The translations under genes were made by a program, and so were the position numbers. DNA of 39,568 nt, from positions 1 through 39,568 of the IMG/VR virus record IMGVR_UViG_3300045988_104095; one strand, given 5' to 3'. Source of the stretch: a virus. A model generated the notes under the pieces. The model ran no database searches and was not told the origin of the DNA. It worked only from the letters and a program-made list of their open reading frames with translations. This document shows, one piece after another, positions 1-39,568 of this stretch (positions within the stretch are counted from its first letter, which is position 1; every line of letters begins with the position of its first letter).

Positions 1-55
1 GAACCACGGTATTATTAACAATGTACCAATTAACCGACGTTTGGAGGTTGTACAC
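1..55. repeat. Terminal direct repeat, copy 1 of 2. Exact duplicate of 39514..39568, consistent with the overlap of a circular assembly.
   Basis: Bases 1-55 and 39514-39568 read identically (gaaccacggtattattaacaatgtaccaattaaccgacgtttggaggttgtacac). A minus-strand reading frame continues in phase across the implied junction 39513|1. Confidence 0.95.
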
Positions 56-1750
56 ATGTCCAAAAAATTCACGGAATCGCACTTCGCTCACGCGGCTAAG
101 GCCGTATCCGAAGGCAAGCGCCTCATTCAAATCGCAAAAGAGATCGGGTTTTCCGCCGACATCATCAGCAAGCACCTTCGGAAGCGAGGAATAGAAATCC
201 CCGTTTACCGCCGCACGGGCGATCGCATCCAGCTGCCCGAGGATGAAATCGTCACCATGTACCAAAGCGGACAATCCGAGCAGGCTATTGCCAAGCATTT
301 CAACGTTGCCCGTCATGCCATCCGACGAAGGCTCGAAAGAGCTGGGATCAAAATGCGCGGGATTCAAGAGGCACAGCTTTTGCGTTTTGCTCAAGCTTCT
401 GAAGAAGCTCGAAAAGCGATCACAAAGGCCGCTAATCTTGCCGTCACTGGAATTACTTGGCCGCACAATGAACGCGTCCGATGGGCGCAATCCCGAGAGC
501 AAACGGGCAAAGTCGGCCGCTTCGGCAAAGGAGAGGCCGAATTTGCCACATACCTGACTCAGCTCGGCATAGACTTCGTTCGTCAGAAGGCCGTAGACGT
601 CTATAACGTCGACTTCGCCGTCGGCCCCGTCGCCGTGGAATTGACCTGCGGAACCCTCAAATACCGAGGCGGGAACGCCGTCGAGAACAAGCGCATCAAA
701 AAGCTCCTCGAATGTGGGTACAACCCAATCTGCGTTGAGTTCTCTGATGAGGGAGCAATCTGTCCGCTTTTTATGGATCAAATAATCTCCCTTGTCGAGA
801 AGGCGTACAGGCTTCCACCCTTTAAGCGTGAGTACTGGGTGATTCGGTGTCGCACTACACACTGTGCCGTCGTCCGTAATGAACTCGGCCAATTTTCCCG
901 TGTAGAGACGCCGATACAGCTTCATTGGGAATGGAAGATCGTTAAGCTTTGATTCCCCAACAAAACACCCCGGCAACTCCCCGGGCAGTACGTAGCGCCC
1001 AACATCGCTGTCGTACAGGCCTTTTTTTAGGTCGAACTTTTTGCCGTCCATCGCCTTGTGCGTCTCGCGGCTCGTGTGCTTGCCGGGTACGTGAATCCAT
1101 TCGCCCTGTTCAACGCCAACCTCTAAATCGTTCGCGCGGCACAGGGCTTCGGTCGCCTTATTGCACTGATCGCGAGCAATGAAGTCCGCCCGGCGCTGTG
1201 TGATGTCGTAGCGCTTAGATAACTCGGACTTAAGCCCCGCCACGTCTCGCCCGTCGGTCACAGCCCGCATGACAAGCCCCTCGACCTCCTGAAGGTATCG
1301 GGAGCTGATGGACTTGATAAGCGACGTGTTGGCGTTCACAAGCGCGTCAAAAGCGTCTTGCGAAATCTGCCCTTTGTCAAAACGAAGGTCGAACGCCTCG
1401 AACCCCGAAGCCCGAAGCGCTGAGTTCTGCGCCCGGTCGACGTGGTCGCGCGTCTTCCTTACGAACCAGTCCGCCGTGTCTTCGGCAAAGTCCTGCGAAT
1501 ATTCTTCCCACTTCTTGCGCATCCGATCAATGATCTTTTGCAAGCGCTCGGCAGGGGACTCGGCCCTTGCGTCCTTCGCAATCCGCGGCTCTACCTTGCG
1601 ATAAAGCCCCTCAAGCTCTTTGGCGACGTCTTGCGCCATCTGACGCACGAGCGACCGCAGTTTGCTCGCGTACGCCTTCCGAAGCCCTGCATTAGGCCGC
1701 ACGGCTCGGATACGCACGTCAGTAGACTGCGCCCGCCTTGTCGCTGTCAT
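1..1750 (-). CDS. Head morphogenesis protein precursor (Mu gpF / SPP1 gp7 family): N-extein 1750..968 plus intein 967..1. The gene continues across the circular junction and ends at 39452.
   Basis: Absent from the ORF track because the frame has no stop before the window edge. By hand translation, ATG at 1750 follows GGAGGA after a 5-nt spacer. The product starts MTATRRAQSTDVRIRAVRPNAGLRKAYASKL and continues ...RYDITQRRADFIARDQCNKATEALCRANDLEVGVEQGEWIHVPGKHTSRETHKAMDGKKFDLKKGLYDSDVGRYVLPGELPG. This is the Mu_F-type C-terminal region, found immediately downstream of the portal gene. I checked every in-frame triplet from 1750 to 1 and found no stop. Confidence 0.85.
   Translation of the reverse strand, partial: MTATRRAQSTDVRIRAVRPNAGLRKAYASKLRSLVRQMAQDVAKELEGLYRKVEPRIAKDARAESPAERLQKIIDRMRKKWEEYSQDFAEDTADWFVRKTRDHVDRAQNSALRASGFEAFDLRFDKGQISQDAFDALVNANTSLIKSISSRYLQEVEGLVMRAVTDGRDVAGLKSELSKRYDITQRRADFIARDQCNKATEALCRANDLEVGVEQGEWIHVPGKHTSRETHKAMDGKKFDLKKGLYDSDVGRYVLPGELPGCFVGESKLNDLPFPMKLYRRLYTGKLAEFITDDGTVCSATPNHPVLTLKGWKPVRLLDKGDYLIHKKRTDCSLIRELNADWVVPTFEELFDALVLDGVPASVFEGSAGQFHGDGADGEVDVIDVYGLLTNEVYAELSQVCGKFGLSFAEAADFARLLSGLRPSDAFIVRPSNSSDGKISGLCDRFSSFFRSLSKTQKLCLLNPAHFDPSSFEPSSDGMTGNVEMLGNSLLGLSALVHGDDFILGQLDAIARAAVNGDFYSSLPKVLADDVGGKPDLFCDLNEALAFGYGLSRVSEVRFREFFGHVYNLQTSVNWYIVNNTVV
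56..952 (+). CDS. Homing-endonuclease-like protein (298 aa) with two HTH motifs and a Vsr/DUF559-like PD-(D/E)xK-type nuclease domain, encoded antisense inside the intein
   Basis: ATG at 56 follows GGAGG (43-47) after an 8-nt spacer. Two HTH-like segments: GKRLIQIAKEIGFSADIISKHLRKRGI and GQSEQAIAKHFNVARHAIRRRLERAGI. EAEFATYLTQLGIDFVRQKAVDVYNVDFAVGPVAVELTCG...NKRIKKLLECGYNPICVEF follows the DUF559/Vsr-like layout (E..L...G..F.RQ....Y.VDF....VAVE..G....R...L...G). This frame has mostly C/G-ending codons and purine-rich first positions. Confidence 0.75.
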   Translation: MSKKFTESHFAHAAKAVSEGKRLIQIAKEIGFSADIISKHLRKRGIEIPVYRRTGDRIQLPEDEIVTMYQSGQSEQAIAKHFNVARHAIRRRLERAGIKMRGIQEAQLLRFAQASEEARKAITKAANLAVTGITWPHNERVRWAQSREQTGKVGRFGKGEAEFATYLTQLGIDFVRQKAVDVYNVDFAVGPVAVELTCGTLKYRGGNAVENKRIKKLLECGYNPICVEFSDEGAICPLFMDQIISLVEKAYRLPPFKREYWVIRCRTTHCAVVRNELGQFSRVETPIQLHWEWKIVKL

Positions 1751-3206
1751 CGCGCTCCTCCGTGGTCGTGCTGCTCATTTGGCCGAACGGGTCTTCAGGA
1801 GCACCCGGGGCCTCACCCTCAAGGTCGCCAAAGGGATGATCCTTGGCATTACTCAACGCCATGCGCACCTCGTCCTCTGAGAGCACGCCGCGATCAAGGT
1901 AGACGGCGGCCGTGTCGGCCATCATCTTCTTGACCTCTGCCGTCGTGCGCTCGTCATCTTCGTCGAGTGAGCAGAATTCAAAGCTAAGGCTAGGATCAAT
2001 GTCGCCAAAGAGATTGATCTGCAGAATGCGCAGTATCTCTTCAAGCGGGCGCCGCAGAATCTTCTCCTGCCGCGTGGCGATTAAGTCGGCCTGTAGCTTG
2101 ATGTCGCTCTCGCCCGTGGCGTTAAAGCCCGAAGGCGACAGCCCGAGCGTCTTCACCACGCCGCTTTGGTTGACGGACACCACGAACTCAAGCGACTGGC
2201 GCACAATGTCCGTCAGGCCGGTAATCGGCGTGTTGACCTGAACGAAGTCTTCTTTGTCCTTGTCGAGGAGGCCAACGCCGTTATTGTCGCGGAACTTCGC
2301 AAAGAACTTCACGCGGTCGCTCACAGGTTGCCACGACTTGCGAGCAAAGAGCTGAGCGCCCAAATCGGTTTTAATGAAGCTCGTCGAGAACTTTGTCAGA
2401 AGCGTGTTCACTTCCTCGCGGTTCTTGCGGAAGTGCGTCACGTAGTCCGAAAGCAACTGCGCCTGAGCGATGCCGAAAAAGTTGTACGAGGGTTTGAGTA
2501 AGTCCGGTACCTCGTTTTCCACAAGGCGGATCAGGCGCGACGCGTGCACCGCCGTGCCCATGATGTAGAACACAGCGGGCTTGTAAAAGTCTTCTTTCAG
2601 CGGGTCGGACGCGTTAAAGCTCTGCGGCGTCGTAAAGATCGGATCAATCACACGGAACGATACGCGGTCTTTAAGCTCCGTCGATCGTGCCGTCTTGTTG
2701 AGTACTTCGTCCGGCTTGGCGTGCCCCGTGTCAACAAACAGGAAGGCGCCGCCCATCAGACCCATAGTCGTGAGCGCCTTGTAAAGCGTATCGCGCAAGC
2801 CGATGCGGTCAATCTCTTCCTCTAGTGCCTTCTTTCGCTTGTCGTCGTCACACTTGATTTCAATCCACGCCCGCAGCATCTCATCGGTTCGTGTTTGAAT
2901 GCACAGGCGAATCAGCGCATCCTGCGAAAGCTGTTGCAAAACGCCGTAGCCGACAAAGCTGACAAGGCTTGAAATCGCAGACCATTCGAACTTAGGCACG
3001 ATGCCGCCAGCAAAAGCCGCGTCCATGGCGCCGTCAAGCTGTTTGTAGTGCGCTTTTGTCCCTGCGAGTGACCGCGCGGGCTTAAGCAGTTCGCGAATGT
3101 CCTTTTCCTGCGGGATCGCGTCGACCACCGTTGTGGTGCCGTCGTATTCGCCGGTGACCTCAAATCCAGAGGTCGGGCGTTTCGTCTTCCGAGATTTTGA
3201 AGCCAT
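1719..3206 (-). CDS. Portal protein
   Basis: A 495-aa ORF immediately downstream of the large terminase and upstream of the Mu gpF-like gene. Size and position are typical of portals. Confidence 0.8.
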   Translation of the reverse strand: MASKSRKTKRPTSGFEVTGEYDGTTTVVDAIPQEKDIRELLKPARSLAGTKAHYKQLDGAMDAAFAGGIVPKFEWSAISSLVSFVGYGVLQQLSQDALIRLCIQTRTDEMLRAWIEIKCDDDKRKKALEEEIDRIGLRDTLYKALTTMGLMGGAFLFVDTGHAKPDEVLNKTARSTELKDRVSFRVIDPIFTTPQSFNASDPLKEDFYKPAVFYIMGTAVHASRLIRLVENEVPDLLKPSYNFFGIAQAQLLSDYVTHFRKNREEVNTLLTKFSTSFIKTDLGAQLFARKSWQPVSDRVKFFAKFRDNNGVGLLDKDKEDFVQVNTPITGLTDIVRQSLEFVVSVNQSGVVKTLGLSPSGFNATGESDIKLQADLIATRQEKILRRPLEEILRILQINLFGDIDPSLSFEFCSLDEDDERTTAEVKKMMADTAAVYLDRGVLSEDEVRMALSNAKDHPFGDLEGEAPGAPEDPFGQMSSTTTEERDDSDKAGAVY

Positions 3207-4374
3207 AACCGCGAGCCTTTATGTAATCGGATAGGCTATACCTAAGTCCGTCAATTATATGATTGTTTTTATCTAAGACAACTGGCAGAACCTCACCAGT
3301 CAGTCTATCCGTTTTGTAAGCGTAAAGCCTGAACTCGTCCGCCGTGTGCACACATCGCGGGTCGATAACGACCTTGTCAAAGCTACGGATAAAGCTAATG
3401 CCTTCCTCGATGCTCTCGGGCCATTTCTCAGCGCCCTCGATGTTGAATCCGTGGCGTTTCAGATAGCTGATTGTCTCAGGCCGAGCGCAGTCCGCCTTAA
3501 TTGGCCATTTCGTTGACTCGGGCACCGAACGATACAGCTGAGGCAATTCGTCGATTTCAACCCCGACGCCGTAAGCCTCATAGTCAATATACAGGCGATT
3601 ATCCAAGATGAAGCACCGAACCAGCGTCGACGGGTCACGCGCAAAGCCGAAGTCGGCGCCGAAGAAGAGCCGGTCGGCCTGTTTCCAAAGATCCTCCGGA
3701 ATCGCCTCGACGACGTACTTGCCGCGGAAAATCTGCGCCCCGCTGATGGTGAGCGGGAAGCCCTCCCAAATGTGCTGATACTTCTCGTAATCGTTCGCCT
3801 TGTCCCATTCCATCTGCTCGCGCAAGACTTCAGGAAAATACGGGTTATCCGTATAGTTGACCTTGCGAACGTAGGCGCCCGGCGGGGGTGCCTCTAGGAA
3901 ATCATTCGTTGGGTCGTCGACCGTGAGCGGGTTGAACGTCAGCCACAATTCCGACCCGGGTTTGCGGATTGTCGGAATCAGCACGTCCCACGACTTGCGC
4001 GAGACGGACGACGCTTCTTCAATCCAACAGATGTCAATGCCTTCCTTTGACCTAATCGAGTTCTCATTACGCAACAGGCCGGAGAAGATAAAGCGGCTCC
4101 CGGTGCGCTTATGCTCAATCTCCGACTCCTTGAAGTCGAACCGGTCAAATAAGCCCATGCGCTCCGCGGTATCTTTCAGCGTCTGATACGACGAATCGCG
4201 GATAGAGTTCTGCACCTCTCGACAGCACAAAATCCGCACCCGCCCGAAATCTGCCATAGCGATAAGCGCGCGTGCAACTGCCCAGCTCTTGCCACTTCCT
4301 CGGCCGCCGTAAAAGACTTTGTATCGGTGCGGCCTATACAGTTCCGCGAATGGGTCGGCGCTTCCGTTTGTCAT
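3160..4374 (-). CDS. terL: Terminase large subunit (PBSX/Terminase_3-like)
   Basis: Walker A motif YGGRGSGKSWAVARALI near the N-terminus. 404 aa, following terS with a 4-nt overlap. Confidence 0.9.
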   Translation of the reverse strand: MTNGSADPFAELYRPHRYKVFYGGRGSGKSWAVARALIAMADFGRVRILCCREVQNSIRDSSYQTLKDTAERMGLFDRFDFKESEIEHKRTGSRFIFSGLLRNENSIRSKEGIDICWIEEASSVSRKSWDVLIPTIRKPGSELWLTFNPLTVDDPTNDFLEAPPPGAYVRKVNYTDNPYFPEVLREQMEWDKANDYEKYQHIWEGFPLTISGAQIFRGKYVVEAIPEDLWKQADRLFFGADFGFARDPSTLVRCFILDNRLYIDYEAYGVGVEIDELPQLYRSVPESTKWPIKADCARPETISYLKRHGFNIEGAEKWPESIEEGISFIRSFDKVVIDPRCVHTADEFRLYAYKTDRLTGEVLPVVLDKNNHIIDGLRYSLSDYIKARGYGFKISEDETPDLWI

Positions 4375-18505: not shown

Positions 18506-19681
18506 TCAAACTACAGTGTAGGCGTCTACGATGGAAGAACGAGCAGGATTATCATCAGGGTCATAGTAGTGACCACCACCAAAAATCCCGTAATTCCCCA
18601 CCGTCGTCGCGGCTAAACCGTACCTACGTTGACTCAGACGCGTAGGGGTGCTACGAACTAATGTCGCACTATAGGCATCTACCATGTTTTGATCAGCGAC
18701 GCCGCCCGAATACAGGCCTCCGCCAAACAGTCCATAATTGCCTACTGTTGTTGCTGCTAACTCTCTTCTTTTGGTACCCAGGGCTGTAGGGGTGCTACGA
18801 ACTAATGTCGCACTATAGGCATCTACTGTGTCTGTCGAATTGGTCGACCCCTGCGCTAAGTCCATTTCCCCGCCGCCAAACAGTGCAAAATTTCCCACAG
18901 TAGTCGCGGCCGATAGATACCTAACATTTTTCATAGGCGTAGGAGTGCTTCGCACGAGAGATGTGGAGTATGCGTCTACCGAGCTTAGAAAATCTCCATA
19001 CGCATACCCACCGCCAAACAATCCATAATTTCCCACAGATGTAGCGGCTAATCCTTCCCTTACATGGCTTAACTCGGTAGGGGTGCTACGAACTAATGTC
19101 GCACTATAGGCGGATACATAGCTTAGGAATCCGCTGTCTCCATAGCCTCCGCCAAACAGCGCAAAATTTCCTACTGTAGTAGCCGCCAATGACCTTGAGT
19201 ATGTTATTAACTTTGCCGGATTGCTACGAACTAATGTCGTACTATAGGCATCTACTGTGTCTGATTGAGATCTATCCCCCCCACCTAATGATAAAACCCC
19301 CCCGCCAAACAGTCCATAATTGCCTACTGTTGTTGCTGCCATGTTATATTTTCTTTCTGTTAGCGCTGTCGGAGTGCTTCTCACTAAAGAAGCACTGTAT
19401 GCGTCTACCGTGTTCCTGAAATAGTAAGTCATGTAACCGCCACCGACAAACAGTCCATAATTGCCTACTGTTGTTGCTGCTAAGTCGCCCCGCGCTACGC
19501 TTAATGGCGTCGCTGTCCCATAGTACGATAGTTTCTGCTCCGCGGAGTAAAACAGCCGCGCTTTTCCACCCACACCAACGTAGGCTTTTTTAACTTTGCG
19601 CGCCTTGTTGGCGACCCCGGTGTAGATTTTTTTGACCTTGCGAGCCTTACCGGCCACGCCAACATAGCACGCTTTAGTCAT
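18506..19681 (-). CDS. Seven-blade Kelch-like beta-propeller protein with an N-terminal G-x-x-KARKVKK-x-Y repeat
   Basis: There are seven repeats of about 48-50 aa of the form LAATTVGN(Y/F)(G/A)LFGGG....VDAYS(A/T)(T/S)LVRSTPT.L. The N-terminus reads YVGVAGKARKVKKIYTGVANKARKVKKAYVGVGGKARLFY. Confidence 0.8.
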   Translation of the reverse strand: MTKACYVGVAGKARKVKKIYTGVANKARKVKKAYVGVGGKARLFYSAEQKLSYYGTATPLSVARGDLAATTVGNYGLFVGGGYMTYYFRNTVDAYSASLVRSTPTALTERKYNMAATTVGNYGLFGGGVLSLGGGDRSQSDTVDAYSTTLVRSNPAKLITYSRSLAATTVGNFALFGGGYGDSGFLSYVSAYSATLVRSTPTELSHVREGLAATSVGNYGLFGGGYAYGDFLSSVDAYSTSLVRSTPTPMKNVRYLSAATTVGNFALFGGGEMDLAQGSTNSTDTVDAYSATLVRSTPTALGTKRRELAATTVGNYGLFGGGLYSGGVADQNMVDAYSATLVRSTPTRLSQRRYGLAATTVGNYGIFGGGHYYDPDDNPARSSIVDAYTVV

Positions 19682-19682
19682 G

Positions 19683-19811
19683 TTAGTAGTCCTGCCCCGT
19701 GATTTCCTTAAACTGCTCTTTCGTGATGACGCCTTTTCTCACAGCGAGGCGCACCATCTGAGCCGTCCAAAGGCCTCTGTCAAAGTTCCGTTTTACAAGC
19801 TCGTAAGTCAT
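19683..19811 (-). CDS. xkdX: XkdX-family small protein (42 aa), below the ORF-track size cutoff
   Basis: Hand translation gives MTYELVKRNFDRGLWTAQMVRLAVRKGVITKEQFKEITGQDY. There is an ATGA overlap with the upstream gene, and TAACATG leads into the next gene. Confidence 0.7.
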   Translation of the reverse strand: MTYELVKRNFDRGLWTAQMVRLAVRKGVITKEQFKEITGQDY

Positions 19812-24623: not shown

Positions 24624-25265
24624 TTACTTCTGTTGTCTTGAAGGTTTAGAGAGATTTTCTTCGCTACAGTTGTTGCGAATCCTTTGGTATATCAGTCCTC
24701 TTGATAGACCCGTTATTTCAGCTATTTCTGTAATTGTCCTCTGCTCCCCTCTGAATGTCACTCTGATCGTATCACTGCGATTTTGTGCGTTCTCTAGGCT
24801 CGTTACAAACCGACAGTTTTCAGGCGAATAACCTTTGTCGTTGTCGATTCGATCTAATTGCAATCCTTCCTTGTATCCGTTTTTCAACGCCCAATCTCTG
24901 AACGTTACATAATCGGTCGCCCACTCTGCGCACACAGATATTCCGCGTTGACCGTAGTTTTTGTACTCTACGTGTCGTTTGCAGGTGCATCGGTTTTTCA
25001 TGCCGCCCCATACCATGTACAGCTTTGCAGCCTTTTTCCCAAATGGTGCGTCCCCGTGTTTTAAGTGCGTTTCTCTAGCCCTTTTAGGTTGCAAACAACC
25101 GCAAGAGCGCGTGTTGCCCGAGGTGAGTGAGGATGTCGCAACATCGCACTCGTTTCCGCACTCGCATTTACAGCGCCACATATAACGACCTTCTTTGTTT
25201 TTGCCGTTCCGATACAACGCTGTAAGCAATCCGAACTTCTGTCCCGTTAAATCAGCAGGCTTCAT
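24624..25265 (-). CDS. Zinc-ribbon + degenerate HNH_3/AP2-like + C-terminal HTH protein; free-standing homing-endonuclease-type gene
   Basis: GQKFGLLTALYR...WRCKCECGNECDVATSSLTSGNTRSCGC, then YMVWGGMKNRC...YKNYGQRGISVCAEW...LDRIDNDKGYSPENCRFVTSLENAQN, then TITEIAEITGLSRGLIYQRI. G+C is visibly lower than the flanks. I prefer the start at 25265; 25298 is possible. Confidence 0.65.
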   Translation of the reverse strand: MKPADLTGQKFGLLTALYRNGKNKEGRYMWRCKCECGNECDVATSSLTSGNTRSCGCLQPKRARETHLKHGDAPFGKKAAKLYMVWGGMKNRCTCKRHVEYKNYGQRGISVCAEWATDYVTFRDWALKNGYKEGLQLDRIDNDKGYSPENCRFVTSLENAQNRSDTIRVTFRGEQRTITEIAEITGLSRGLIYQRIRNNCSEENLSKPSRQQK

Positions 25266-25311
25266 CGCTTTCCGTTTGAGTGAACACGAGGATAACGACA
25301 TTTTATCACGG

Positions 25312-25953
25312 TCAGGATCTATCGCCAGAGATCGTCCGGCCCGGATTAAAAACCCCCTGATCGAACGGCAACAGGTCAGACCCTTCAAACCCAAAAATCT
25401 GCTCATTCGGATAGATGATAAGGAAATTGGTCATCACGCCTGCAGGCCTATTGAGCAAACCATATTCCTGAAGAACCGTCGCTTGCAAGTCTGAAATTGA
25501 ACCAACTACAACAATGGATTGGATTCGCATATTCTGGTAATCCACTGCAAACACCTTGGTATCCGTCAACCGGCTGAGCATTCGATTCATCGTGGCGCAC
25601 GTCGAATCCGACACGTTGCAGACCGCGCGATACATCAGCAGGAAACGAAAATAGTCGTCATCGAATCGGACATATTCGTCTTTGACCTTAATATAGCGGT
25701 CAATGCCGATGCGCTTGCCCCACCAGTCAAGAAATACGCCCTTTGCCGTCTGTACGTCGGCAACCTGCACCGCGATATCATCGAGCTGATCCGTCGCGTC
25801 AATCTCGTCTTGCAAAATCTTTCCGACGGCGTTCATGCGCGGGGCGTGAGCGTACTGGCTTTGCATGGCCACAGACGCGCGACTTGTCACGTCGGCCATT
25901 TCGCGCACGTCTTCGGCAGATTCAAAGTTCTGCCAAGTCTGTGAATCGCTCAT
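25312..25953 (-). CDS. Baseplate/tail protein downstream of baseplate J (Mu gp48-position, DUF2612-like)
   Basis: Assigned by position after the J-like gene. It contains a KGVFLDWWGKRIGIDR motif. Confidence 0.5.
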   Translation of the reverse strand: MSDSQTWQNFESAEDVREMADVTSRASVAMQSQYAHAPRMNAVGKILQDEIDATDQLDDIAVQVADVQTAKGVFLDWWGKRIGIDRYIKVKDEYVRFDDDYFRFLLMYRAVCNVSDSTCATMNRMLSRLTDTKVFAVDYQNMRIQSIVVVGSISDLQATVLQEYGLLNRPAGVMTNFLIIYPNEQIFGFEGSDLLPFDQGVFNPGRTISGDRS

Positions 25954-30031: not shown

Positions 30032-31750
30032 TCACTTCAAATTGACGCCGCGCGTCGACTGGCCGATAAGTTCCGCCTGACGGTTGAAGCCTCCTGCGAC
30101 CGTGGCGCCGATGGCTCGGCTGATCGCCTGCGCGTTGTCTCTTGTCTCGATGTTGTTCACGACATTCATGCTCGCGTTAGTGACGACGTTGGGAGCCGCG
30201 GCCTTATATGCCGCCTGCTTCACTACGACAATCTCACGCTCGCGGGTGCTCGTGGGCTGTTTCTTCTCCTCGTCGCCGGCCTTGTCGCCGCTGAAACCGA
30301 GGAATTTCCCGATGCCGCCAAAGAGCCCTTTAATAGGTTCGCCAATCTTCTTTTTAATGAGATCGGCGGCGTCATCGAACCACCCTGTGAGCGTCTGCCA
30401 TGCCGTCTTAAGCGCCTCAATGATCGCGTCCGGGATAGCCGTAAAGACTGAGGCGATGCCCTTGCCGACCTTTTTCGCCGTCCGCCAAAGCGTGTTAAAG
30501 CCGATCACAACGCCGTTAATGGCGGCTACCAGCCCGACGATAACGACCGAAACGGCCTTAAAGACAAGCGTCAGGGCGCCGCCTAAAAGCGGCTTGATCT
30601 TGTCCCACAGCCAAGAAAAGCCCTCGCCGAGCGTCTTCAGGCTCTCGCGCAACTCTTCGATGTCGGCGGCACCGGCGCCCATCTTCTTAAGCATTCGCTC
30701 AATAAGGCTGTCGGCGCCTTGGGCGAACCCAATCAGGTCGTCAATAGCGAGCACTAGGGCCGCTACGCCTGCCGCGATTACCGTTACCGGCAGGGCCGCC
30801 ATCTTGACGGCCACGCCAAAGGCTCGCACGGCAATAATCGCGTTCTTAATTGCATTCAGGTTTTTAAGCCCAAACACAAGACCGAACCCGACCGCGAGCA
30901 GGGCAAAGGCGCGGGCGTTCTCGCGGATAATCCCGACAAGGCCGCTTAAGCCGTCAAGCACCTTTGTGACGCCCGGAAGCACCAGCCGCACGAACACATT
31001 GCCGACGTCTTGCGCCGCAATCTTAAAGTCCATCCACGCGACTTTGAACGCGCGGGCGTTTCGACTGTCCTGCGCGGTAAAAGCCGTCTTGCGGTACTTC
31101 GCCATTAAGGCATCAAGCGCCTTTTGTCCTTGCAGGAAAATGGGAATGGCATCGAGCGCCACGCCCTGCGCCTGTAAGAAGCGCTGAGCCGCCCCGCGAC
31201 TCATCCCCTCGACTTTGCTCGCAAGCTGAAACACTTCCTCAGCCGGTCGCCCGGACTGCTGGTAGTAAGCCTTCATCGAGGCAAAGATTGATTCGGCAGA
31301 ACCCCCGGCGGCCTCTGCGGCCTTCCCGAATGCGTCAAGCTCGCGCACCGACACGCCGAGTTGCATCGACAGCCTAGCAAGCGATTCCGACTTATCGACA
31401 TAGTTGCTGAATGTCTGCGCACCACCGGCCACCAGCCCGAAGGTAGCGGCCAACAGTCCGAGCTTCGAGCGCACCAGCTCAATGGCGGGCGCAGCACCCT
31501 TGAAGGAGTCGGAGATAGCCGCGGCGGCTTCTTTCGACGCTTCACCGAGCTTTTGCACGCGTTCGCCAGCACGCGAGAACGAGAGCGCAGAAACGGCGCC
31601 CGTGTCTTTCGACTGCGTGCCGACCGCTTCAAATTGCTCCTTTGCCTTTGTCGCAAAGCTCTCGACCTTCCCACGAACGGCATCGACGCCCTTGGCAAAC
31701 TCCTTCGCGTCAAGCCCGATGGAAATCAGTAATTCGTCAATGACAGACAT
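30032..31750 (-). CDS. Tail tape measure protein
   Basis: About 570 aa, helix-rich and Ala-rich with central hydrophobic segments. It follows the chaperone pair. ATG is at 31750; the ORF track begins at a TTG at 31753. Confidence 0.85.
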   Translation of the reverse strand: MSVIDELLISIGLDAKEFAKGVDAVRGKVESFATKAKEQFEAVGTQSKDTGAVSALSFSRAGERVQKLGEASKEAAAAISDSFKGAAPAIELVRSKLGLLAATFGLVAGGAQTFSNYVDKSESLARLSMQLGVSVRELDAFGKAAEAAGGSAESIFASMKAYYQQSGRPAEEVFQLASKVEGMSRGAAQRFLQAQGVALDAIPIFLQGQKALDALMAKYRKTAFTAQDSRNARAFKVAWMDFKIAAQDVGNVFVRLVLPGVTKVLDGLSGLVGIIRENARAFALLAVGFGLVFGLKNLNAIKNAIIAVRAFGVAVKMAALPVTVIAAGVAALVLAIDDLIGFAQGADSLIERMLKKMGAGAADIEELRESLKTLGEGFSWLWDKIKPLLGGALTLVFKAVSVVIVGLVAAINGVVIGFNTLWRTAKKVGKGIASVFTAIPDAIIEALKTAWQTLTGWFDDAADLIKKKIGEPIKGLFGGIGKFLGFSGDKAGDEEKKQPTSTREREIVVVKQAAYKAAAPNVVTNASMNVVNNIETRDNAQAISRAIGATVAGGFNRQAELIGQSTRGVNLK

Positions 31751-32806: not shown

Positions 32807-32815
32807 ATGTGACAT

Positions 32816-36202: not shown

Positions 36203-36640
36203 TTATTCCTTGTGTGAATTCTTTTGAGGCATCGGGTCGTCGCCCGTCTTTTCGTCGGCGTGGTCAATCGCGAAATTCAAGCCCTGCGCCTCGCTCTTCT
36301 TTTCCTTAATGCGCCCGGATGCGAACCACGGGCCATAAGCCTGACCGAGTTCGGCCTTCACCTGCTCCCATAACGCACGATCGACAACCGTCACGCCGTA
36401 ACCACCGGCAGGCAGTGCGCCGCCCGAAGCGTTCGCGAGATATACGCCGTTGCCGTTAATGGTGACGCTCTTGCCGTTACTCAGCGTGAACTTCTGAGAG
36501 ATGCGGGAGCGGAAAAGGATCGTGACTGTATCCGACGTCTTGGCAGTGTTGCCGACGCTCACCGTGGCGCCGTCTTCGCTGATTACCTTGACTTTCGGAG
36601 CGCTCGGAGCACGCTTTACTTTAGTTTCCTGATTGGCCAT
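36203..36640 (-). CDS. Hypothetical head-associated protein (145 aa)
   Basis: ORF track. Follows the major capsid gene. Confidence 0.55.
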   Translation of the reverse strand: MANQETKVKRAPSAPKVKVISEDGATVSVGNTAKTSDTVTILFRSRISQKFTLSNGKSVTINGNGVYLANASGGALPAGGYGVTVVDRALWEQVKAELGQAYGPWFASGRIKEKKSEAQGLNFAIDHADEKTGDDPMPQKNSHKE

Positions 36641-36665
36641 TTTTTCTGTTTCCTTAAAAATTGAA

Positions 36666-36689
36666 CGGGGAGAGCGTCAGCCCTCCCCG
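36666..36689 (-). terminator. Hairpin downstream of the major capsid gene; possibly a partial terminator
   Basis: CGGGGAG (36666-72) pairs with CTCCCCG (36683-89) around a 10-nt loop. On the minus strand it is followed by TTCAATTTTTAAGG. Confidence 0.4.
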
Positions 36690-36731
36690 GGGCATGATCA
36701 ATCTGACAACCTTGTCAAATTGATCCGGTCA

Positions 36732-37757
36732 TTACGACTTCTGAATACCCGTCATCGTCGCAACAGCGAACGGACGGAACAGCAGACAGCCGGTCGTAGA
36801 CGATGCCCACTTCTGAGACATGGAAGAGTGCTCGACGAGAACCGGATAGGTCTTCAGTTTTTCGAGGAAGCCGAATTTAGCCGTCGGCCGCCCTGCGATT
36901 TCCGTCGCGATCAGCATGGCTTTGCACACGCCTTCTTCATCCTGAAGCTGCGGGAGAGAAATAATCTCAAGGCTCGGGAAGAAGCCCTTAAGGGTCTGCA
37001 GAACCGGCGCGACGCCGAGCGTCGTCGTCTTGGCGAGCTGTCCCATAATGGACGGCGGCACCACCAGCTTGAGTTTGCTGTTAAAGCTCACATAGCCATT
37101 GGACGCGGCGGCGATCTGATTGAACATCGAAAGGATGTCGTTATAAATCTCGTTCGCGTCCTTGTCGGCCCATGCCGTTTTATTCGTGCCGACGGTAGCG
37201 GGCGACAGTGCGGCGGGCAGTGCCGGGTCGTTCAGCAGGCCATAAATAGACATACCGCTCACGCCAAACAAGTTGTAATTGTTGGCGTCGATTTCGATCG
37301 CGGTTGCCGCGGCGCGCTGTTTTTCAGACAGCAGATTGATCTTCTGAGCCGTCGCGATGTCTTCTTCCAAGTCGCCGATCTGAATAAAGGTCTGGAACTT
37401 GTAGGTTTCGCGGGTCACCTGCTCGATGTTGGCTTCAGACAGCAGGCCGCGACCGTAGTCGCTGTATGCCGTCGTCTGACCAACGTATTCAACGGCCGGG
37501 AACATCGTCTGAACGTCCTTCCAGTCGCCGCGCTTTTCTTCGGAGAAAATCTCCGTAGAGTTGCGGGGAGCCTGAAGGATTTCGACAATCTCAGGGCTAT
37601 AGTAGGTTGCAAACAGAGCAGGGGTCTGCACGTTGGCGACGGTCTGCAAAGCAGCATCCATCGCGATCTCGGCAGTGCCGTTCTGAGTCGGAAGAAAACG
37701 CCCGTTGCCCTTGCACAGGTCAAAGCCGAGGCGTTCCATGGTTTCACTTCGTGCCAT
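36732..37757 (-). CDS. Major capsid protein
   Basis: 341 aa in the capsid position, after the scaffold and a small structural protein. No lysine/arginine bias of the antisense type. Confidence 0.75.
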   Translation of the reverse strand: MARSETMERLGFDLCKGNGRFLPTQNGTAEIAMDAALQTVANVQTPALFATYYSPEIVEILQAPRNSTEIFSEEKRGDWKDVQTMFPAVEYVGQTTAYSDYGRGLLSEANIEQVTRETYKFQTFIQIGDLEEDIATAQKINLLSEKQRAAATAIEIDANNYNLFGVSGMSIYGLLNDPALPAALSPATVGTNKTAWADKDANEIYNDILSMFNQIAAASNGYVSFNSKLKLVVPPSIMGQLAKTTTLGVAPVLQTLKGFFPSLEIISLPQLQDEEGVCKAMLIATEIAGRPTAKFGFLEKLKTYPVLVEHSSMSQKWASSTTGCLLFRPFAVATMTGIQKS

Positions 37758-37781
37758 TTCAAATCCACCTTCAAAAAAAGA

Positions 37782-38297
37782 TTAAGACGCGGCCATCGGA
37801 GGCACGACATTGGGCTGCTGGTTGCTGATCAGCACAAGGGACTTCGCTTCCGTGCCCAGCACATTTTCAACGACGAAATTCGTCATCGTGTAGCCATCCT
37901 TCTTGGCGTTGCCCGTCTGCGTCGTGACAGAGCCGTCAGTCTGCGAGGCGAGCACGTAATCGCCCACCTTGGCGCTAGCGTTCTGCGCGACAACCCAAAA
38001 CTTGCCATTCGTGGCGATCTGCGCGAAGGCGCCTTTAGGAACGACCATCGCATTCGCAGCAGTCACTTCGCCCGTGATGTACTGGCGGGTGTAAACGACG
38101 ATGCCGCGCAGGATGCCGGTTCCGGCCTTGTTGACCTTCGTGCCGCCGGCGGTGCCGTCTGCGAAGCAGAAATTACCAACCGTCAGATCAGAGGCGGCCT
38201 GATAGGTCTGCGCCGTGTAGTGCGTTTCAACAACGCTCGCGGGCATACCCGCAATCGCGGGGGCAAGCCCCACATTTACTTTGGACTGGAGAGCCAT
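37782..38297 (-). CDS. Head decoration/cement-like structural protein (171 aa)
   Basis: Assigned by position between the scaffold and capsid genes. Gly/Ala/Thr/Val-rich, beta-type sequence. Confidence 0.5.
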   Translation of the reverse strand: MALQSKVNVGLAPAIAGMPASVVETHYTAQTYQAASDLTVGNFCFADGTAGGTKVNKAGTGILRGIVVYTRQYITGEVTAANAMVVPKGAFAQIATNGKFWVVAQNASAKVGDYVLASQTDGSVTTQTGNAKKDGYTMTNFVVENVLGTEAKSLVLISNQQPNVVPPMAAS

Positions 38298-38309
38298 TTG
38301 CCCATCTCC

Positions 38310-39470
38310 TTATCGAATGAACTGCTTCAAAAAATCCTCGTCGCTCTTGGGCGCCGAATCCATTGCACCGCTCGGGGCGGCGGTCTTGACCGACTGCAAA
38401 GCGGCAAAGACGTGTTTGGCGGCGCTGGCCGGGACGTTCTTGACGCCCATCGCCTTGACGGCGTCGAGATAGATCGCGTCGGCGCTGTCGTATGCCATCG
38501 GGTCGACGTTGCCCAGCACGGACTTGACTTCGGTCGCCGCGCGGTACTGAGCAGACAACTGCCCGCGCACCGTCTTGGCAATCATGGCCGCGTCCATGGC
38601 GCCGCCTTCGGGCTTGGCTTCGCCCGCGTCTTCGTCTTCGGCCTTGGCTTCGTCCTTAGGCTCGTCAGCGTCTTCGGCGCCTTCGGGCTTGGCAGGCTCT
38701 TCGTCTCGCGTGCCTTCCGTTTCCTGCACGGCCGCATCGGCCTTGCTTTCTTCGAACTTCGCGTGAGATTCAGCAAAAGCGCGCACCAGTGCGTCCTTCT
38801 GCTCGGGCGTCAGTTCAACGCCTGACTCGTCGATAGTCTTGCGTGCAAACTCCGTGAAGTCGTCACACGCCCCATCAACCTTTGTTTCTTCACTCATGGT
38901 GATTCCTCTAGGTTTTTCGTCAGAGACATAGCAGTAGGGAGCTCTACCCTCGTGAACAAGTGCAACGTGATTGCAAGCGAGATCGCGCATCACGAAGTCA
39001 TAAGCAAGCCCGTCCGGAGTCTCCCCGGGCGTGAAATCGGGCTTATATCGGTATCCGCAACTGAGGTCGCGCAGTGTGCCGTCCTCAATCGCGGAAATTG
39101 CTTTTTCATCCCACACGCTCAGCGCGTTGGTTATGTACGGCGGCTCCCACTTCGCGCTGGTGCCGACGGTGCCAACGCGAAGCTCCTTGTTCGGGTGCTC
39201 CGCGCTGTCAAACTTGTGTTCGATCAAAAGCGGCACGCCGTTGAACGTCGACAGTGCCGCCTTAAGCTCGTCAGGGTTACGCCAGCCGTAATAGATTCGG
39301 TCAGGGTCTAACTGCCGCTCTTCCCATCCCGGAATCTCGCGCCCGTAGTATGGCGCCACGTGGTCGCGGGTTAAATTCGATGTCTTGACCTGCAAAAAGC
39401 CGTTTTTGTCGCGCGTCCGCGCTGACTCCATAACGACCTTCTCATCAAGCGCTAAGAGTTCTTTTTCCAT
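38310..39470 (-). CDS. Prohead scaffold/protease-like protein (DUF2213-like N-domain with acidic C-terminal half)
   Basis: LQVKTSNLTRDHVAPYYGREIPG ... GVPLLIEHK ... LSCGYRY ... ACNHVALVHEGRA. This is followed by a D/E/K/A-rich region. The gene comes first after the Mu gpF-like gene. Confidence 0.65.
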   Translation of the reverse strand: MEKELLALDEKVVMESARTRDKNGFLQVKTSNLTRDHVAPYYGREIPGWEERQLDPDRIYYGWRNPDELKAALSTFNGVPLLIEHKFDSAEHPNKELRVGTVGTSAKWEPPYITNALSVWDEKAISAIEDGTLRDLSCGYRYKPDFTPGETPDGLAYDFVMRDLACNHVALVHEGRAPYCYVSDEKPRGITMSEETKVDGACDDFTEFARKTIDESGVELTPEQKDALVRAFAESHAKFEESKADAAVQETEGTRDEEPAKPEGAEDADEPKDEAKAEDEDAGEAKPEGGAMDAAMIAKTVRGQLSAQYRAATEVKSVLGNVDPMAYDSADAIYLDAVKAMGVKNVPASAAKHVFAALQSVKTAAPSGAMDSAPKSDEDFLKQFIR

Positions 39471-39568
39471 AGCTTTCTACTCAATAGTGGACGATACGTA
39501 CATTGGCAATTGTGAACCACGGTATTATTAACAATGTACCAATTAACCGACGTTTGGAGGTTGTACAC
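39452..39568 (-). CDS. 3' end of the same head morphogenesis gene: last intein residues (...GHVYNLQTSVNWYIVNNTVVHN) plus the C-extein CQCTYRPLLSRKLWKKNS and stop
   Basis: Continuing the frame from position 1 (= 39514) gives H (39514..39512), N (39511..39509), then C Q C T Y R P L L S R K L W K K N S and TAG at 39454..39452. Joined to the N-extein this restores PGELPG-CQCT, the conserved C-x-C end of Mu_F-type proteins. Confidence 0.85.
   Translation of the reverse strand: MYNLQTSVNWYIVNNTVVHNCQCTYRPLLSRKLWKKNS
39503..39531 (+). promoter_or_regulatory. Candidate sigma70-type promoter for the antisense endonuclease gene (TTGGCA-N17-TATTAA)
   Basis: TTGGCA lies at 39503..39508 and TATTAA at 39526..39531 (= 13..18 of the left copy), about 25 nt upstream of the GGAGG/ATG of CDS 56..952. 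It sits in a locally AT-rich stretch. Confidence 0.35.
39514..39568. repeat. Terminal direct repeat, copy 2 of 2 (duplicate of 1..55)
   Basis: Exact 55-nt identity with the window start. Confidence 0.95.

What the first reader, a model, noticed from the sequence alone, without database searches (positions are those of the whole stretch)
56..952. Intein whose only recognisable endonuclease is encoded on the opposite strand, codon-aligned with the intein frame
In the plus frame, 56..952 encodes a convincing protein.
- It has two HTH motifs and a Vsr/DUF559-like nuclease core (VDF...VAVEL...KRIKKLLECGY).
- It has its own GGAGG RBS, mostly C/G-ending codons and purine-rich first codon positions.

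The same DNA on the minus strand is the central ~190 aa of the intein, between Hint blocks B and F.
- That stretch is S/L/F/G/D-rich, as expected for antisense translation of a K/R/E-rich protein.
- I saw no LAGLIDADG, HNH or GIY-YIG motif in it.
- It must still be translated without a stop for the conserved C-extein (CQCTYRP...) to be made.

The two frames share codon boundaries, so only plus-strand TTA, CTA or TCA codons would break the intein. I checked all 298 sense codons and none is one of these.

Caveat: these codons are rare throughout this genome, and other register-aligned antisense ORFs exist (for example 36633..38825). The open frame is therefore permissive rather than proof of dual selection.

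Fractured genes, in which free-standing Vsr-like endonuclease genes sit between split-intein halves in phage metagenomes, were described by Dassa et al. 2009 (NAR). An unbroken cis-intein with an inverted, nested Vsr-like gene is not an arrangement I know to be described. It could be an intermediate on the route by which free-standing endonucleases invade inteins or break them into split inteins.
Basis: partly seen in the sequence, partly recalled or inferred. Interest (0 to 1): 0.93.

Follow-up and report, generated by a model that had tools for sequence, protein, structure and literature searches.

The report
Intein with antisense homing-endonuclease gene
A phage head-assembly gene carries a self-splicing protein insert (intein) whose middle is read on the opposite DNA strand as a separate DNA-cutting enzyme gene; this is real and kept by selection, but the layout was already described in 2025.

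Summary
Plus ORF 56..952 encodes a 298-aa protein with two HTH domains and a Vsr/DUF559-like nuclease domain. Its AlphaFold model has pLDDT 95, and the best structural match is the I-Bth0305I catalytic domain.

The same DNA on the minus strand, in the codon-aligned register, is residues 6-304 of a 324-aa class-1 intein. The intein sits at PGELPG|CQC of a MuF-like head morphogenesis protein (603-aa precursor). The intein centre is predicted disordered and matches no nuclease.

In this window alone the double open frame is weak evidence (P about 0.02-0.05). Relatives settle it:
- About 130 loci at 42-68% GC keep both frames open.
- The wobble signature shows selection on the plus frame in the centre and on the minus frame over the Hint lobes.
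- A free-standing copy beside an intein-less MuF gene has 12 minus-frame stops.

The novelty claim fails. Gosselin, Arsenault and Gogarten (bioRxiv 2025) describe "VSR -1 ORF" inteins in MuF-like minor capsid proteins of Gordonia phages, and those loci are homologues of this one. Antisense LAGLIDADG genes in inteins date from 1998.

Apparently undescribed: the wide spread outside actinophages, translation signals embedded in intein block F, and a 9-12-nt stretch fixed in both frames.

The parts
56..952 (+). Homing-endonuclease-type gene (298 aa + stop). It has two N-terminal HTH domains, a helical linker and a C-terminal Vsr/DUF559-like nuclease domain.
   Evidence: ORF. AlphaFold mean pLDDT 95.0. 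Foldseek top hit 3r3p, the I-Bth0305I catalytic domain, prob 1.00. Profile hits to 3hrl at E 1.6e-6 and 3r3p at E 1.1e-4. 2,211 representative proteins at E<=1e-30.
43..58 (+). Shine-Dalgarno GGAGG (43-47) and ATG (56-58) of the plus gene. This is the reverse complement of the intein block F codons His-Val-Tyr-Asn-Leu-Gln.
   Evidence: Sequence. In 50 relatives the His codon is CAT (plus ATG) in 32 and CAC (plus GTG) in 11. The Leu codon is CTC in 36 and the Asn codon is AAC in 37.
74..340 (+). Two helix-turn-helix DNA-binding domains (aa 7-43 and 62-95).
   Evidence: Pfam HTH_7 at aa 63-91, E 2.6e-5. PHROG DNA-binding hits. Model helices. Profile hit to the tandem-HTH structure 2lvs, E 1.5e-7.
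518..760 (+). Nuclease core (aa ~155-235). Family-invariant residues are E160, Y183, N184, D186, V192-A193-V194-E195 and R213.
   Evidence: Alignments. Aligned to 3r3p and 3hrl. Plus-frame wobble positions are the freest here.
629..640 (.). GTCGCCGTGGAA, read as V-A-V-E on plus and F-H-G-D on minus (intein residues 110-113). It is fixed at all three codon positions.
   Evidence: Identical in 11 of 12 nested phage and metagenome loci found independently of it, at 42-68% GC. It differs in the free-standing copy. FHGDG is invariant in the minus-frame alignment.
761..949 (+). C-terminal tail of the plus ORF (aa 236-298), lying over the Hint N-lobe.
   Evidence: Here plus position 1 (the minus wobble) varies most, and minus-frame identity exceeds plus-frame identity (0.41 vs 0.27). 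It is modelled as a helix plus a long hairpin at pLDDT ~95.
761..967 (-). Intein N-lobe (residues 1-69). Cys1 codon at 965-967; block B T40-P-N-H43-P.
   Evidence: Translation. Invariant C1, T40, P41, N42, H43, P44 and W51. pLDDT 80-96. Foldseek matches the Mtu RecA intein splicing domain, prob 1.00.
587..730 (-). Minus-frame residues 80-127: a helix plus strands that include FHGDGxxGEVxV. Model confidence is intermediate and the role is unknown.
   Evidence: pLDDT ~60-83. Conserved motif.
131..586 (-). Intein linker (residues 128-279). It is the antisense translation of the endonuclease gene, rich in L/S/G/D/A/F.
   Evidence: pLDDT 29-48. No structural match other than splicing domains. Minus-frame amino-acid entropy exceeds plus-frame entropy. 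Composition.
1..130 (-). Intein C-lobe (residues 280-322: ...FFGHVYNLQTSVNWYIVNNTVV). It continues at the window end.
   Evidence: pLDDT 70-97. Blocks F and G.
39452..39514 (-). Last two intein residues His-Asn (39509-39514; position 39514 is position 1), C-extein CQCTYRPLLSRKLWKKNS (39455-39508) and stop (39452-39454).
   Evidence: Translation of the window end and the 55-nt overlap.
968..1750 (-). N-extein of the MuF-like head morphogenesis protein (261 aa, ends ...VLPGELPG).
   Evidence: Pfam Phage_Mu_F, E 1.9e-10. phrog_324 head morphogenesis, E 1.5e-56.

Best explanation
**What it is**
- This is a mobile intein in the MuF-like head morphogenesis gene of an uncultured, roughly 39.5-kb circular phage.
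- The intein is inserted before the conserved Cys of the C-terminal CxC motif.
- The host gene is translated straight through the 324-aa intein. The Hint N-lobe (about residues 1-69, perhaps up to ~127) and C-lobe (about 280-324) fold together and splice.
- The ~150-210 residues between the lobes are a tolerated, largely disordered linker.

**The nested gene**
- The linker DNA is, on the other strand, a separate gene for a 298-aa endonuclease-type protein of the Vsr/DUF559/I-Bth0305I kind: two HTH domains plus a nuclease domain.
- The gene sits in the codon-aligned antisense register. Keeping the intein frame open then only requires avoiding three sense codons (TTA, CTA, TCA), and each has synonyms.
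- Its Shine-Dalgarno sequence and start codon are the reverse complement of the intein block F codons.

**How it most likely works (inferred)**
- The protein is made from a plus-strand transcript.
- It cuts intein-less MuF alleles near the PGELPx|CxC coding site during co-infection.
- Repair of the break copies intein and endonuclease gene together.

**Shown versus inferred**
- Shown: the anatomy, conservation of both open frames, the strand-specific selection signatures, and the predicted folds.
- Inferred: transcription and translation of the plus gene, nuclease activity, splicing and homing.
For: **Plus gene**
- AlphaFold pLDDT 95.0. Foldseek top hit is the I-Bth0305I catalytic domain, E 2.3e-3, prob 1.00, target TM 0.65.
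- Profile hits to 3hrl (DUF559) at E 1.6e-6, 3r3p at E 1.1e-4 and the tandem-HTH structure 2lvs at E 1.5e-7.
- Large family: 2,211 representatives at E<=1e-30.

**Minus frame**
- Canonical C1, TxxH and HN|C.
- Only the Hint lobes are confidently modelled; residues 128-279 have pLDDT 29-48. Only intein splicing domains match.

**Both frames are kept open**
- 16 of 17 first loci have 0 stops in the plus frame and in the aligned minus frame, against 5-38 stops in other frames.
- All 120 IMG/VR loci retrieved also have both open.
- P(minus open | plus protein, local codon usage) is 3e-6 for Aaphi23, 1e-7 for a Vibrio phage and 2e-4 to 9e-4 for others.
- Natural control: the free-standing copy in Acinetobacter phage IME285 has 12 minus-frame stops next to an intein-less MuF gene.

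**Selection signature**
- In 113 sequences non-redundant at 80% identity, plus aa 11-190 have the freest plus wobble and H(+aa) < H(-aa).
- Over plus aa 241-290 the pattern is reversed.
- Against relatives 96-97% identical: 14 plus-synonymous vs 6 minus-synonymous of 26 variant codons in the centre, and 1 vs 6 over the Hint N-lobe.

**Sporadic distribution**
- 939 phage records hold a homologue of the spliced extein and 883 cover at least 80% of it. The listed best hits are single pieces that run across the splice junction, so they are intein-less.
- Only 119 records hold the endonuclease gene.
- An intein-less allele reads PGELPN|CRC.

**Homology to described cases**
- tblastn hits include Gordonia phages Fosterous, Vivi2, Angelicage, Affeca and Malisha.
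- Gosselin et al. list these as "minor capsid, MuF-like, VSR -1 ORF".
Against: - There is no direct evidence that the plus gene is expressed. The simple scan found no sigma-70-like promoter in the regions scanned: window 1-1800 and the last ~1.1 kb, which precede position 1 on the circle.
- This copy has Lys202 where I-Bth0305I has the general-base His213. His is present in only about half of the family, and the D222 equivalent is not conserved. Nuclease activity is therefore not assured.
- The intein region is only modestly more conserved than its flanks in close relatives (96.7-98.6% vs 90-96%). Dual coding could explain that as well as recent homing could.
- In the window alone, the open minus frame is not statistically compelling.
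Confidence: 0.8

Rival explanations
1. The plus-strand gene is real and under selection, but it is no longer a homing nuclease. It would be a DNA-binding or regulatory protein, or a nickase with altered chemistry, and the intein would now be inherited mostly vertically.
For: Lys202 replaces the EDxHD general-base His, which only 52 of 113 relatives have at the aligned column. The D222 equivalent is not conserved. Gosselin et al. report vertical-looking inheritance for most VSR-type clusters.
Against: E160, D186, E195 and R213 are invariant or nearly so. The element is present in roughly a tenth of MuF homologues among isolates and in several unrelated exteins (MuF, minor capsid protein 2, UDG), which fits mobility.
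Confidence: 0.15
2. The minus frame is not translated across the centre. The gene would work as a fractured gene with a split intein, using internal termination and re-initiation.
For: One Aaphi23-like prophage has a single TAA at intein residue 68, with a called gene starting shortly after it.
Against: The window has no stop, and neither do about 130 relatives, including AT-rich ones where 10 or more stops are expected. The free-standing control does accumulate stops.
Confidence: 0.03
3. The plus ORF is a by-product of a conserved minus-frame protein domain and encodes nothing.
For: Long aligned antisense open frames occur elsewhere in this window.
Against: Those other frames have no family hits. 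This one models at pLDDT 95 and matches independent nuclease and HTH families. Wobble variation follows the plus frame in the centre. The minus centre is predicted disordered. The ORF also exists free-standing where the minus frame is full of stops.
Confidence: 0.02

Closest known systems
Anti-sense VSR-like HEN inteins ("VSR -1 ORF") in MuF-like minor capsid proteins of actinobacteriophages (Gosselin, Arsenault and Gogarten, bioRxiv 10.1101/2025.01.02.630785)
   Same: Same host protein family and same insertion type. The intein is full-length and unbroken, with a Vsr-like gene on the antisense strand in the -1 (codon-aligned) frame. The in-frame centre has no recognisable structure. The Gordonia loci they list are detectable homologues of the window's plus ORF (29-33% aa identity).
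   Different: This copy is in a roughly 56% GC uncultured phage. Its capsid is at most 42% identical to anything in the phage collection (best hit an unannotated human-faecal phage contig), and the closest named relatives infect Gammaproteobacteria. The preprint surveys only PhagesDB. It does not, as far as I read it (abstract, sections 8 and 15, and term searches of the main text and supplements), report the family outside actinophages, the wobble-switch analysis, the block F start signals or the dual-fixed 12-mer.
Antisense LAGLIDADG ORF in the Synechocystis DnaX intein (Gorbalenya 1998; Gogarten 2002), as cited in the preprint
   Same: A homing-endonuclease gene is encoded on the strand opposite an unbroken intein.
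   Different: The nuclease family (LAGLIDADG), the host gene and the organism type are all different.
Fractured genes (Dassa et al. 2009, PMC2677866)
   Same: A Vsr-like endonuclease gene lies between the two halves of an intein in phage-like DNA. Their model has free-standing endonuclease genes invading inteins.
   Different: [quoted passage not shown] Here the intein is contiguous and the endonuclease gene is inverted and overlapped.
I-Bth0305I, the EDxHD homing endonuclease family (Taylor et al. 2011, PMC3239194)
   Same: The architecture matches: two N-terminal HTH/NUMOD-type motifs and a C-terminal Vsr-like nuclease domain. I-Bth0305I is the best structural match.
   Different: I-Bth0305I is encoded in a group I intron. 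The window protein lacks the His213 and D222 equivalents.
Free-standing homing endonuclease genes next to their target ("collaborative homing" model of Bonocora and Shub; from my own knowledge)
   Same: Acinetobacter phages IME285, P1068 and BUCT629 carry a member of this endonuclease family (34% aa identity). IME285, the one inspected, has it free-standing directly after an intein-less MuF gene.
   Different: In the window the gene is nested inside the intein rather than beside the target gene.

Membership tests
Class 1 intein (Hint domain) | Nucleophilic Cys/Ser at intein position 1 | tested here: met
   Cys1 (codon 965-967, minus strand) after ...PGELPG. It is invariant in the alignment.
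Class 1 intein (Hint domain) | Block B TxxH | tested here: met
   T40-P-N-H43-P, invariant.
Class 1 intein (Hint domain) | C-terminal His-Asn followed by Cys/Ser/Thr at +1 | tested here: met
   ...NTVVHN|CQC across the circular junction.
Class 1 intein (Hint domain) | Block F acidic residue (VYDLxV) | tested here: not met
   Block F reads VYNLQT here. The codon is Asn (AAC or AAT) in 48 of 50 relatives. The canonical motif is from my own knowledge.
Class 1 intein (Hint domain) | Hint fold | tested here: met
   The predicted lobes match the Mtu RecA intein splicing domain (2imz, prob 1.00) and other inteins.
Class 1 intein (Hint domain) | Protein splicing activity | not testable with these tools
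   Requires expression of the 603-aa precursor.
Anti-sense VSR-like HEN intein (Gosselin et al. 2025) | Unbroken intein frame across the endonuclease region | tested here: met
   0 stops.
Anti-sense VSR-like HEN intein (Gosselin et al. 2025) | Vsr-like ORF on the antisense strand in the -1 frame | tested here: met
   Codon-aligned plus ORF 56-952. Vsr-like fold.
Anti-sense VSR-like HEN intein (Gosselin et al. 2025) | Homology to the described members | tested here: met
   tblastn hits at E 1e-15 to 1e-21 to Fosterous gp12, Vivi2 gp14, Angelicage gp15, Affeca gp15 and Malisha gp5. The preprint lists these as VSR -1 ORF.
EDxHD / Vsr-like homing endonuclease (I-Bth0305I) | Vsr-like nuclease fold with N-terminal HTH/NUMOD DNA-binding region | tested here: met
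   Foldseek 3r3p prob 1.00. Profile E 1.1e-4. Two HTH domains.
EDxHD / Vsr-like homing endonuclease (I-Bth0305I) | Composite catalytic motif E, D, H (general base), D | tested here: not met
   E160 and D186 (equivalent to D196) are present. The His213 equivalent is Lys202, and the D222 equivalent is not conserved. I file it as Vsr/DUF559-like, not as a strict EDxHD member.
EDxHD / Vsr-like homing endonuclease (I-Bth0305I) | Site-specific cleavage of the element-free allele | not testable with these tools
   Biochemical assay needed.
Fractured gene / split intein (Dassa et al. 2009) | Host gene broken into two separately translated genes by the endonuclease gene | tested here: not met
   A single continuous 603-aa frame. 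One relative (L140) does carry one stop.
Phage Mu F-like head morphogenesis protein (extein) | Phage_Mu_F domain, located beside the portal gene | tested here: met
   PF04233 at E 1.9e-10, above the cut-off. phrog_324 at E 1.5e-56. The adjacent 495-aa ORF 1719..3206 occupies the place of the annotated portal gene in relatives; I did not scan it myself.

The most novel reading that the evidence does not exclude
The overlap may be more than a passive linker. The stretch GTCGCCGTG(GAA) would code at once for the nuclease catalytic strand V-A-V-E and for a functionally required H-G-D element of the intein. That element could, for example, supply the acidic or basic residue that this intein family lacks in block F (VYNLQT instead of VYDLxV). 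Intein and endonuclease would then have co-evolved into an inseparable two-strand unit over about 120 codons.
Probability: 0.25. Interest if true: 0.7.

Novelty: new member of a known kind. Interest (0 to 1): 0.45.

Why it matters
- It is a clean natural case of two proteins read from opposite strands of the same codons. The cost of overlap is minimised by the codon-aligned register.
- It bears on how free-standing homing endonuclease genes become part of inteins. The family occurs free-standing beside an intein-less target, nested antisense in an intact intein, and once with the intein frame broken by a single synonymous change.
- The practical gain is scope. The arrangement is not confined to actinophages.
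- It is present but unannotated in more than 100 sequenced isolates, including cultivable Aggregatibacter, Salmonella (Jerseyvirus), Klebsiella, Vibrio, Edwardsiella and Pseudomonas phages, and in at least 120 IMG/VR contigs.
- Expression, splicing and homing can therefore be tested directly. Genome annotation pipelines miss the gene in nearly all the records I inspected.

Tried and rejected
- **Profile-based locus retrieval.** The search for related loci with alignments A1 and A2 failed because no stretch was conserved enough. I used a DNA pattern instead. That pattern fixes the 12-mer, so the IMG/VR set cannot be used to test the 12-mer itself. For that I relied on the tblastn- and protein-derived loci.
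- **Promoters and terminators.** Simple scans around the plus gene gave nothing above shuffled expectation.
- **Presence/absence pair.** I hoped Klebsiella phages RCIP0113 (with intein) and RCIP0114 (without) would be a close pair. Their MuF proteins are only distantly related, so they show only the uninterrupted site.
- **Intein versus flank identity in close relatives.** The result was inconclusive for recent transfer.
- **First codon-usage reference.** It picked the longest ORFs and could have included spurious antisense frames. I repeated it with a curated minus-strand gene set and got the same result.
- **Real plus-frame tail.** I considered that plus aa 236-298 is an ancestral part of the nuclease, because the free-standing copy has the same length. 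Its identity to that copy in this part is only 14%. I treat the tail as mainly shaped by the Hint coding, despite its high pLDDT.
Full report
**1. What is in the sequence**

The window is a circular contig; its last 55 nt repeat its first 55.

On the minus strand an ORF starts at Met 1750-1748, preceded by GGAGGAG. It encodes a 261-aa MuF-like head morphogenesis N-extein (Pfam Phage_Mu_F E 1.9e-10; phrog_324 E 1.5e-56) that ends ...VLPGELPG.

A Cys codon at 965-967 opens an intein that runs past position 1. It ends at the window end as ...NTVVHN, followed by the C-extein CQCTYRPLLSRKLWKKNS and a stop. The totals are 261 + 324 + 18 = 603 aa.

On the plus strand, ATG 56 to TGA 950-952 encodes 298 aa, with GGAGG 8 nt upstream. 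The two frames share codon boundaries: plus residue i lies over intein residue 305-i. The plus ORF has no TTA, CTA or TCA codon.

**2. Which frame encodes a folded protein**

The plus protein:
- With a 74-sequence alignment it models at mean pLDDT 95.0.
- The model has two three-helix HTH units, a helical linker and an alpha/beta nuclease domain.
- The best PDB structural match is the catalytic domain of the homing endonuclease I-Bth0305I (3r3p, E 2.3e-3, prob 1.00, target TM 0.65). Bipartite HTH DNA-binding domains follow.
- At sequence-profile level the family hits the DUF559 structure 3hrl (E 1.6e-6), 3r3p (E 1.1e-4) and the tandem-HTH protein 2lvs (E 1.5e-7).

The minus-frame intein:
- It is confidently modelled only at residues 1-69 and 280-322. 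Residues 128-279 have pLDDT 29-48.
- The model matches intein splicing domains only, such as Mtu RecA 2imz at prob 1.00.
- Canonical class-1 residues are present: C1, T40xxH43, HN|C.

As a control, the window's three other long aligned antisense frames (368, 455 and 730 codons) have no Pfam hits.

**3. Is the double open frame more than chance?**

Within the window, barely:
- TTA+CTA+TCA are 1.75% of codons.
- P(minus open | plus protein) = 0.016.
- P(plus open | minus translation) = 1.5e-4.

The answer comes from relatives.

tblastn of the plus protein finds 119 phage records. Of the 12 whose annotation I inspected, the match lies antisense to a long annotated head protein CDS in 11:
- Aaphi23
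- Vibrio PvVp04
- Klebsiella KpTDp1 and RCIP0113
- Edwardsiella MSW-3
- Gordonia Fosterous and Malisha
- Idiomarinaceae 1N2-2
- Shigella fPSFA
- Salmonella LSPA1
- Pseudomonas CF57a

Counts of open frames:
- In 16 of 17 first loci, the plus frame and the aligned minus frame have 0 stops over the match. Other frames have 5-38 stops.
All of them have both frames open.
- Given local codon usage, the chance of an open minus frame is 3e-6 in Aaphi23 (43% GC), 1e-7 in the Vibrio phage, and 2e-4 to 9e-4 in several others.

The exception is a natural control. In Acinetobacter phage IME285 the same gene is free-standing. It is convergent with an intein-less MuF gene (...WLPM|CKC...) and overlaps that gene's stop by 7 nt. 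Its aligned minus frame carries 12 stops, about the number expected.

**4. Which frame is under selection, and where**

In the aligned register, plus codon position 3 is minus position 1. The wobble signature therefore tells the frames apart.

In 113 sequences non-redundant at 80% identity (12-locus version):
- Plus residues 11-190 (intein 115-294) have the freest plus position 3 and lower amino-acid entropy in the plus frame.
- Plus residues 241-290 (intein 15-64, the Hint N-lobe) show the reverse.

Against relatives 96-97% identical:
- Centre: 26 variant codons, 14 plus-synonymous and 6 minus-synonymous.
- Hint N-lobe: 7 variant codons, 1 plus-synonymous and 6 minus-synonymous.
- N-extein: 125 variant codons, 104 minus-synonymous.

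So the endonuclease gene is under purifying selection as a protein. The linker evolves almost freely apart from staying open. The plus ORF's last ~60 codons are dictated mainly by the Hint domain.

**5. Details that tie the two genes together**

- **Start signals.** The plus start codon is the reverse complement of the block F His codon: CAT gives ATG in 32 of 50 relatives, and CAC gives GTG in 11. The Shine-Dalgarno sequence is the reverse complement of Asn-Leu-Gln (AAC CTC CAR).
- **Dual-fixed 12-mer.** GTCGCCGTGGAA reads V-A-V-E on plus and F-H-G-D on minus. It is identical in 11 of 12 independently found nested loci spanning 42-68% GC. It is also identical in Salmonella LSPA1, the Aaphi23-like prophage and two further metagenomic loci, one at 68% GC.
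- **Variants of the 12-mer.** Variants keep at least G-D-G on the minus strand. The free-standing copy reads GTGGCGCTGGAA. FHGDG is invariant in a minus-frame alignment with diverse exteins.
- **Meaning.** This stretch is constrained in both frames. Why the minus frame needs it is unexplained.
- **A possible lead.** Block F here has Asn where canonical inteins have Asp (the canonical motif is from my own knowledge).

**6. Mobility and origin**

- A spliced-extein query finds 939 phage records, and 883 cover at least 80% of it. The listed best hits are single pieces that run across the splice junction, so they are intein-less. Only 119 records hold the endonuclease gene.
- An intein-less Klebsiella allele reads PGELPN|CRC, almost the window's junction.
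- The same intein-plus-antisense-gene unit occurs in MuF (48 of 85 N-exteins), phage minor capsid protein 2 (11 of 85), a UDG and other exteins.
- This fits a mobile element that arose when a free-standing endonuclease gene targeting the MuF CxC region joined an intein at that site.
- In an Aaphi23-like prophage, a single plus-synonymous TTG to TTA change puts a TAA at intein residue 68. This could be decay or a nascent split intein.

**7. Comparison with what is known**

Gosselin, Arsenault and Gogarten (bioRxiv 10.1101/2025.01.02.630785, version of 2025-10-20) describe 63 non-canonical actinobacteriophage inteins.
- These include anti-sense VSR-like endonuclease genes in full-length inteins of MuF-like minor capsid proteins.
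- Their table lists Malisha gp5, Vivi2 gp14, Angelicage gp15, Affeca gp15 and Fosterous gp12 as "VSR -1 ORF". These are the very loci that the window's protein hits.
- They cite Gorbalenya 1998 and Gogarten 2002 for antisense LAGLIDADG genes in inteins.

Dassa et al. 2009 describe the split, same-orientation "fractured" version.

The protein has the I-Bth0305I architecture. However, it lacks the His213 and D222 equivalents: Lys202 in the window, and His in 52 of 113 relatives. I therefore call it Vsr/DUF559-like rather than a strict EDxHD member, and its activity remains to be shown.

**8. Verdict**

- The claim that the arrangement is undescribed is not correct.
- This is a new, non-actinophage member of a recently described kind.
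- Additions that I did not find in the literature searched: the breadth of the family (at least 2,211 representative proteins at E<=1e-30), the strand-switching selection signature, the start signals embedded in block F, the dual-fixed motif, and the free-standing and broken variants.

Noticed in passing
window 1-55 and 39514-39568: The two ends of the window are identical over 55 nt. The contig is a circular, roughly 39.5-kb phage genome, and the MuF-intein gene spans the junction.
   Followed up: yes
L013 (Acinetobacter phage IME285, MH853786.1) 455-2055: A member of the same endonuclease gene family (34% aa identity) is free-standing here. It is convergent with an intein-less MuF gene (...WLPM|CKC...) and overlaps that gene's stop by 7 nt. 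The aligned minus frame has 12 stops. Phages P1068 and BUCT629 gave near-identical tblastn hits but I did not inspect their context.
   Followed up: partly
window 629-640: GTCGCCGTGGAA (plus VAVE, minus FHGD) is fixed at all three codon positions in relatives from 42 to 68% GC. Why the minus frame needs H-G-D is unexplained.
   Followed up: partly
L140 (GCA_021310225.1 prophage) about 3206-3208: This Aaphi23-like prophage differs from Aaphi23 at 5 nt in the endonuclease ORF. One difference, a synonymous TTG to TTA, puts a TAA at intein residue 68, directly after the Hint N-lobe. It could be decay or a nascent split intein.
   Followed up: partly
window 36633-38822, 32813-34177, 30081-31184 (plus strand): Long codon-aligned antisense open frames (730, 455 and 368 codons) lie over capsid and tail-region genes. 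They have no Pfam hits. The capsid-region genes 36735-38309 contain no TTA, CTA or TCA at all.
   Followed up: partly
window 18509-19738 and 24627-25430 (minus strand): These two genes have GC3 of 0.44 and 0.49, against about 0.67 elsewhere, and many TTA codons. They are probably recently acquired. They have no informative Pfam hit.
   Followed up: partly
L021 (IMGVR_UViG_3300025130_000006), minus ORF: The host gene appears to carry a second intein upstream (CVSGDTLV...TPEHHV...HVYDLSV...VHNS) in the same ORF as the antisense-endonuclease intein.
   Followed up: no
window 41-55 and block F of relatives: Block F of this intein family reads VYNLQT, with Asn where canonical inteins have Asp. Its codons double as the Shine-Dalgarno sequence and start codon of the antisense gene.
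   Followed up: partly
GenBank records hit (e.g. NC_004827.1, NC_026017.1, NC_020082.1): In 11 of the 12 annotated isolate records I inspected, the antisense endonuclease gene is not annotated; only the long head protein CDS is. The Acinetobacter record annotates the gene as a hypothetical protein.
   Followed up: partly
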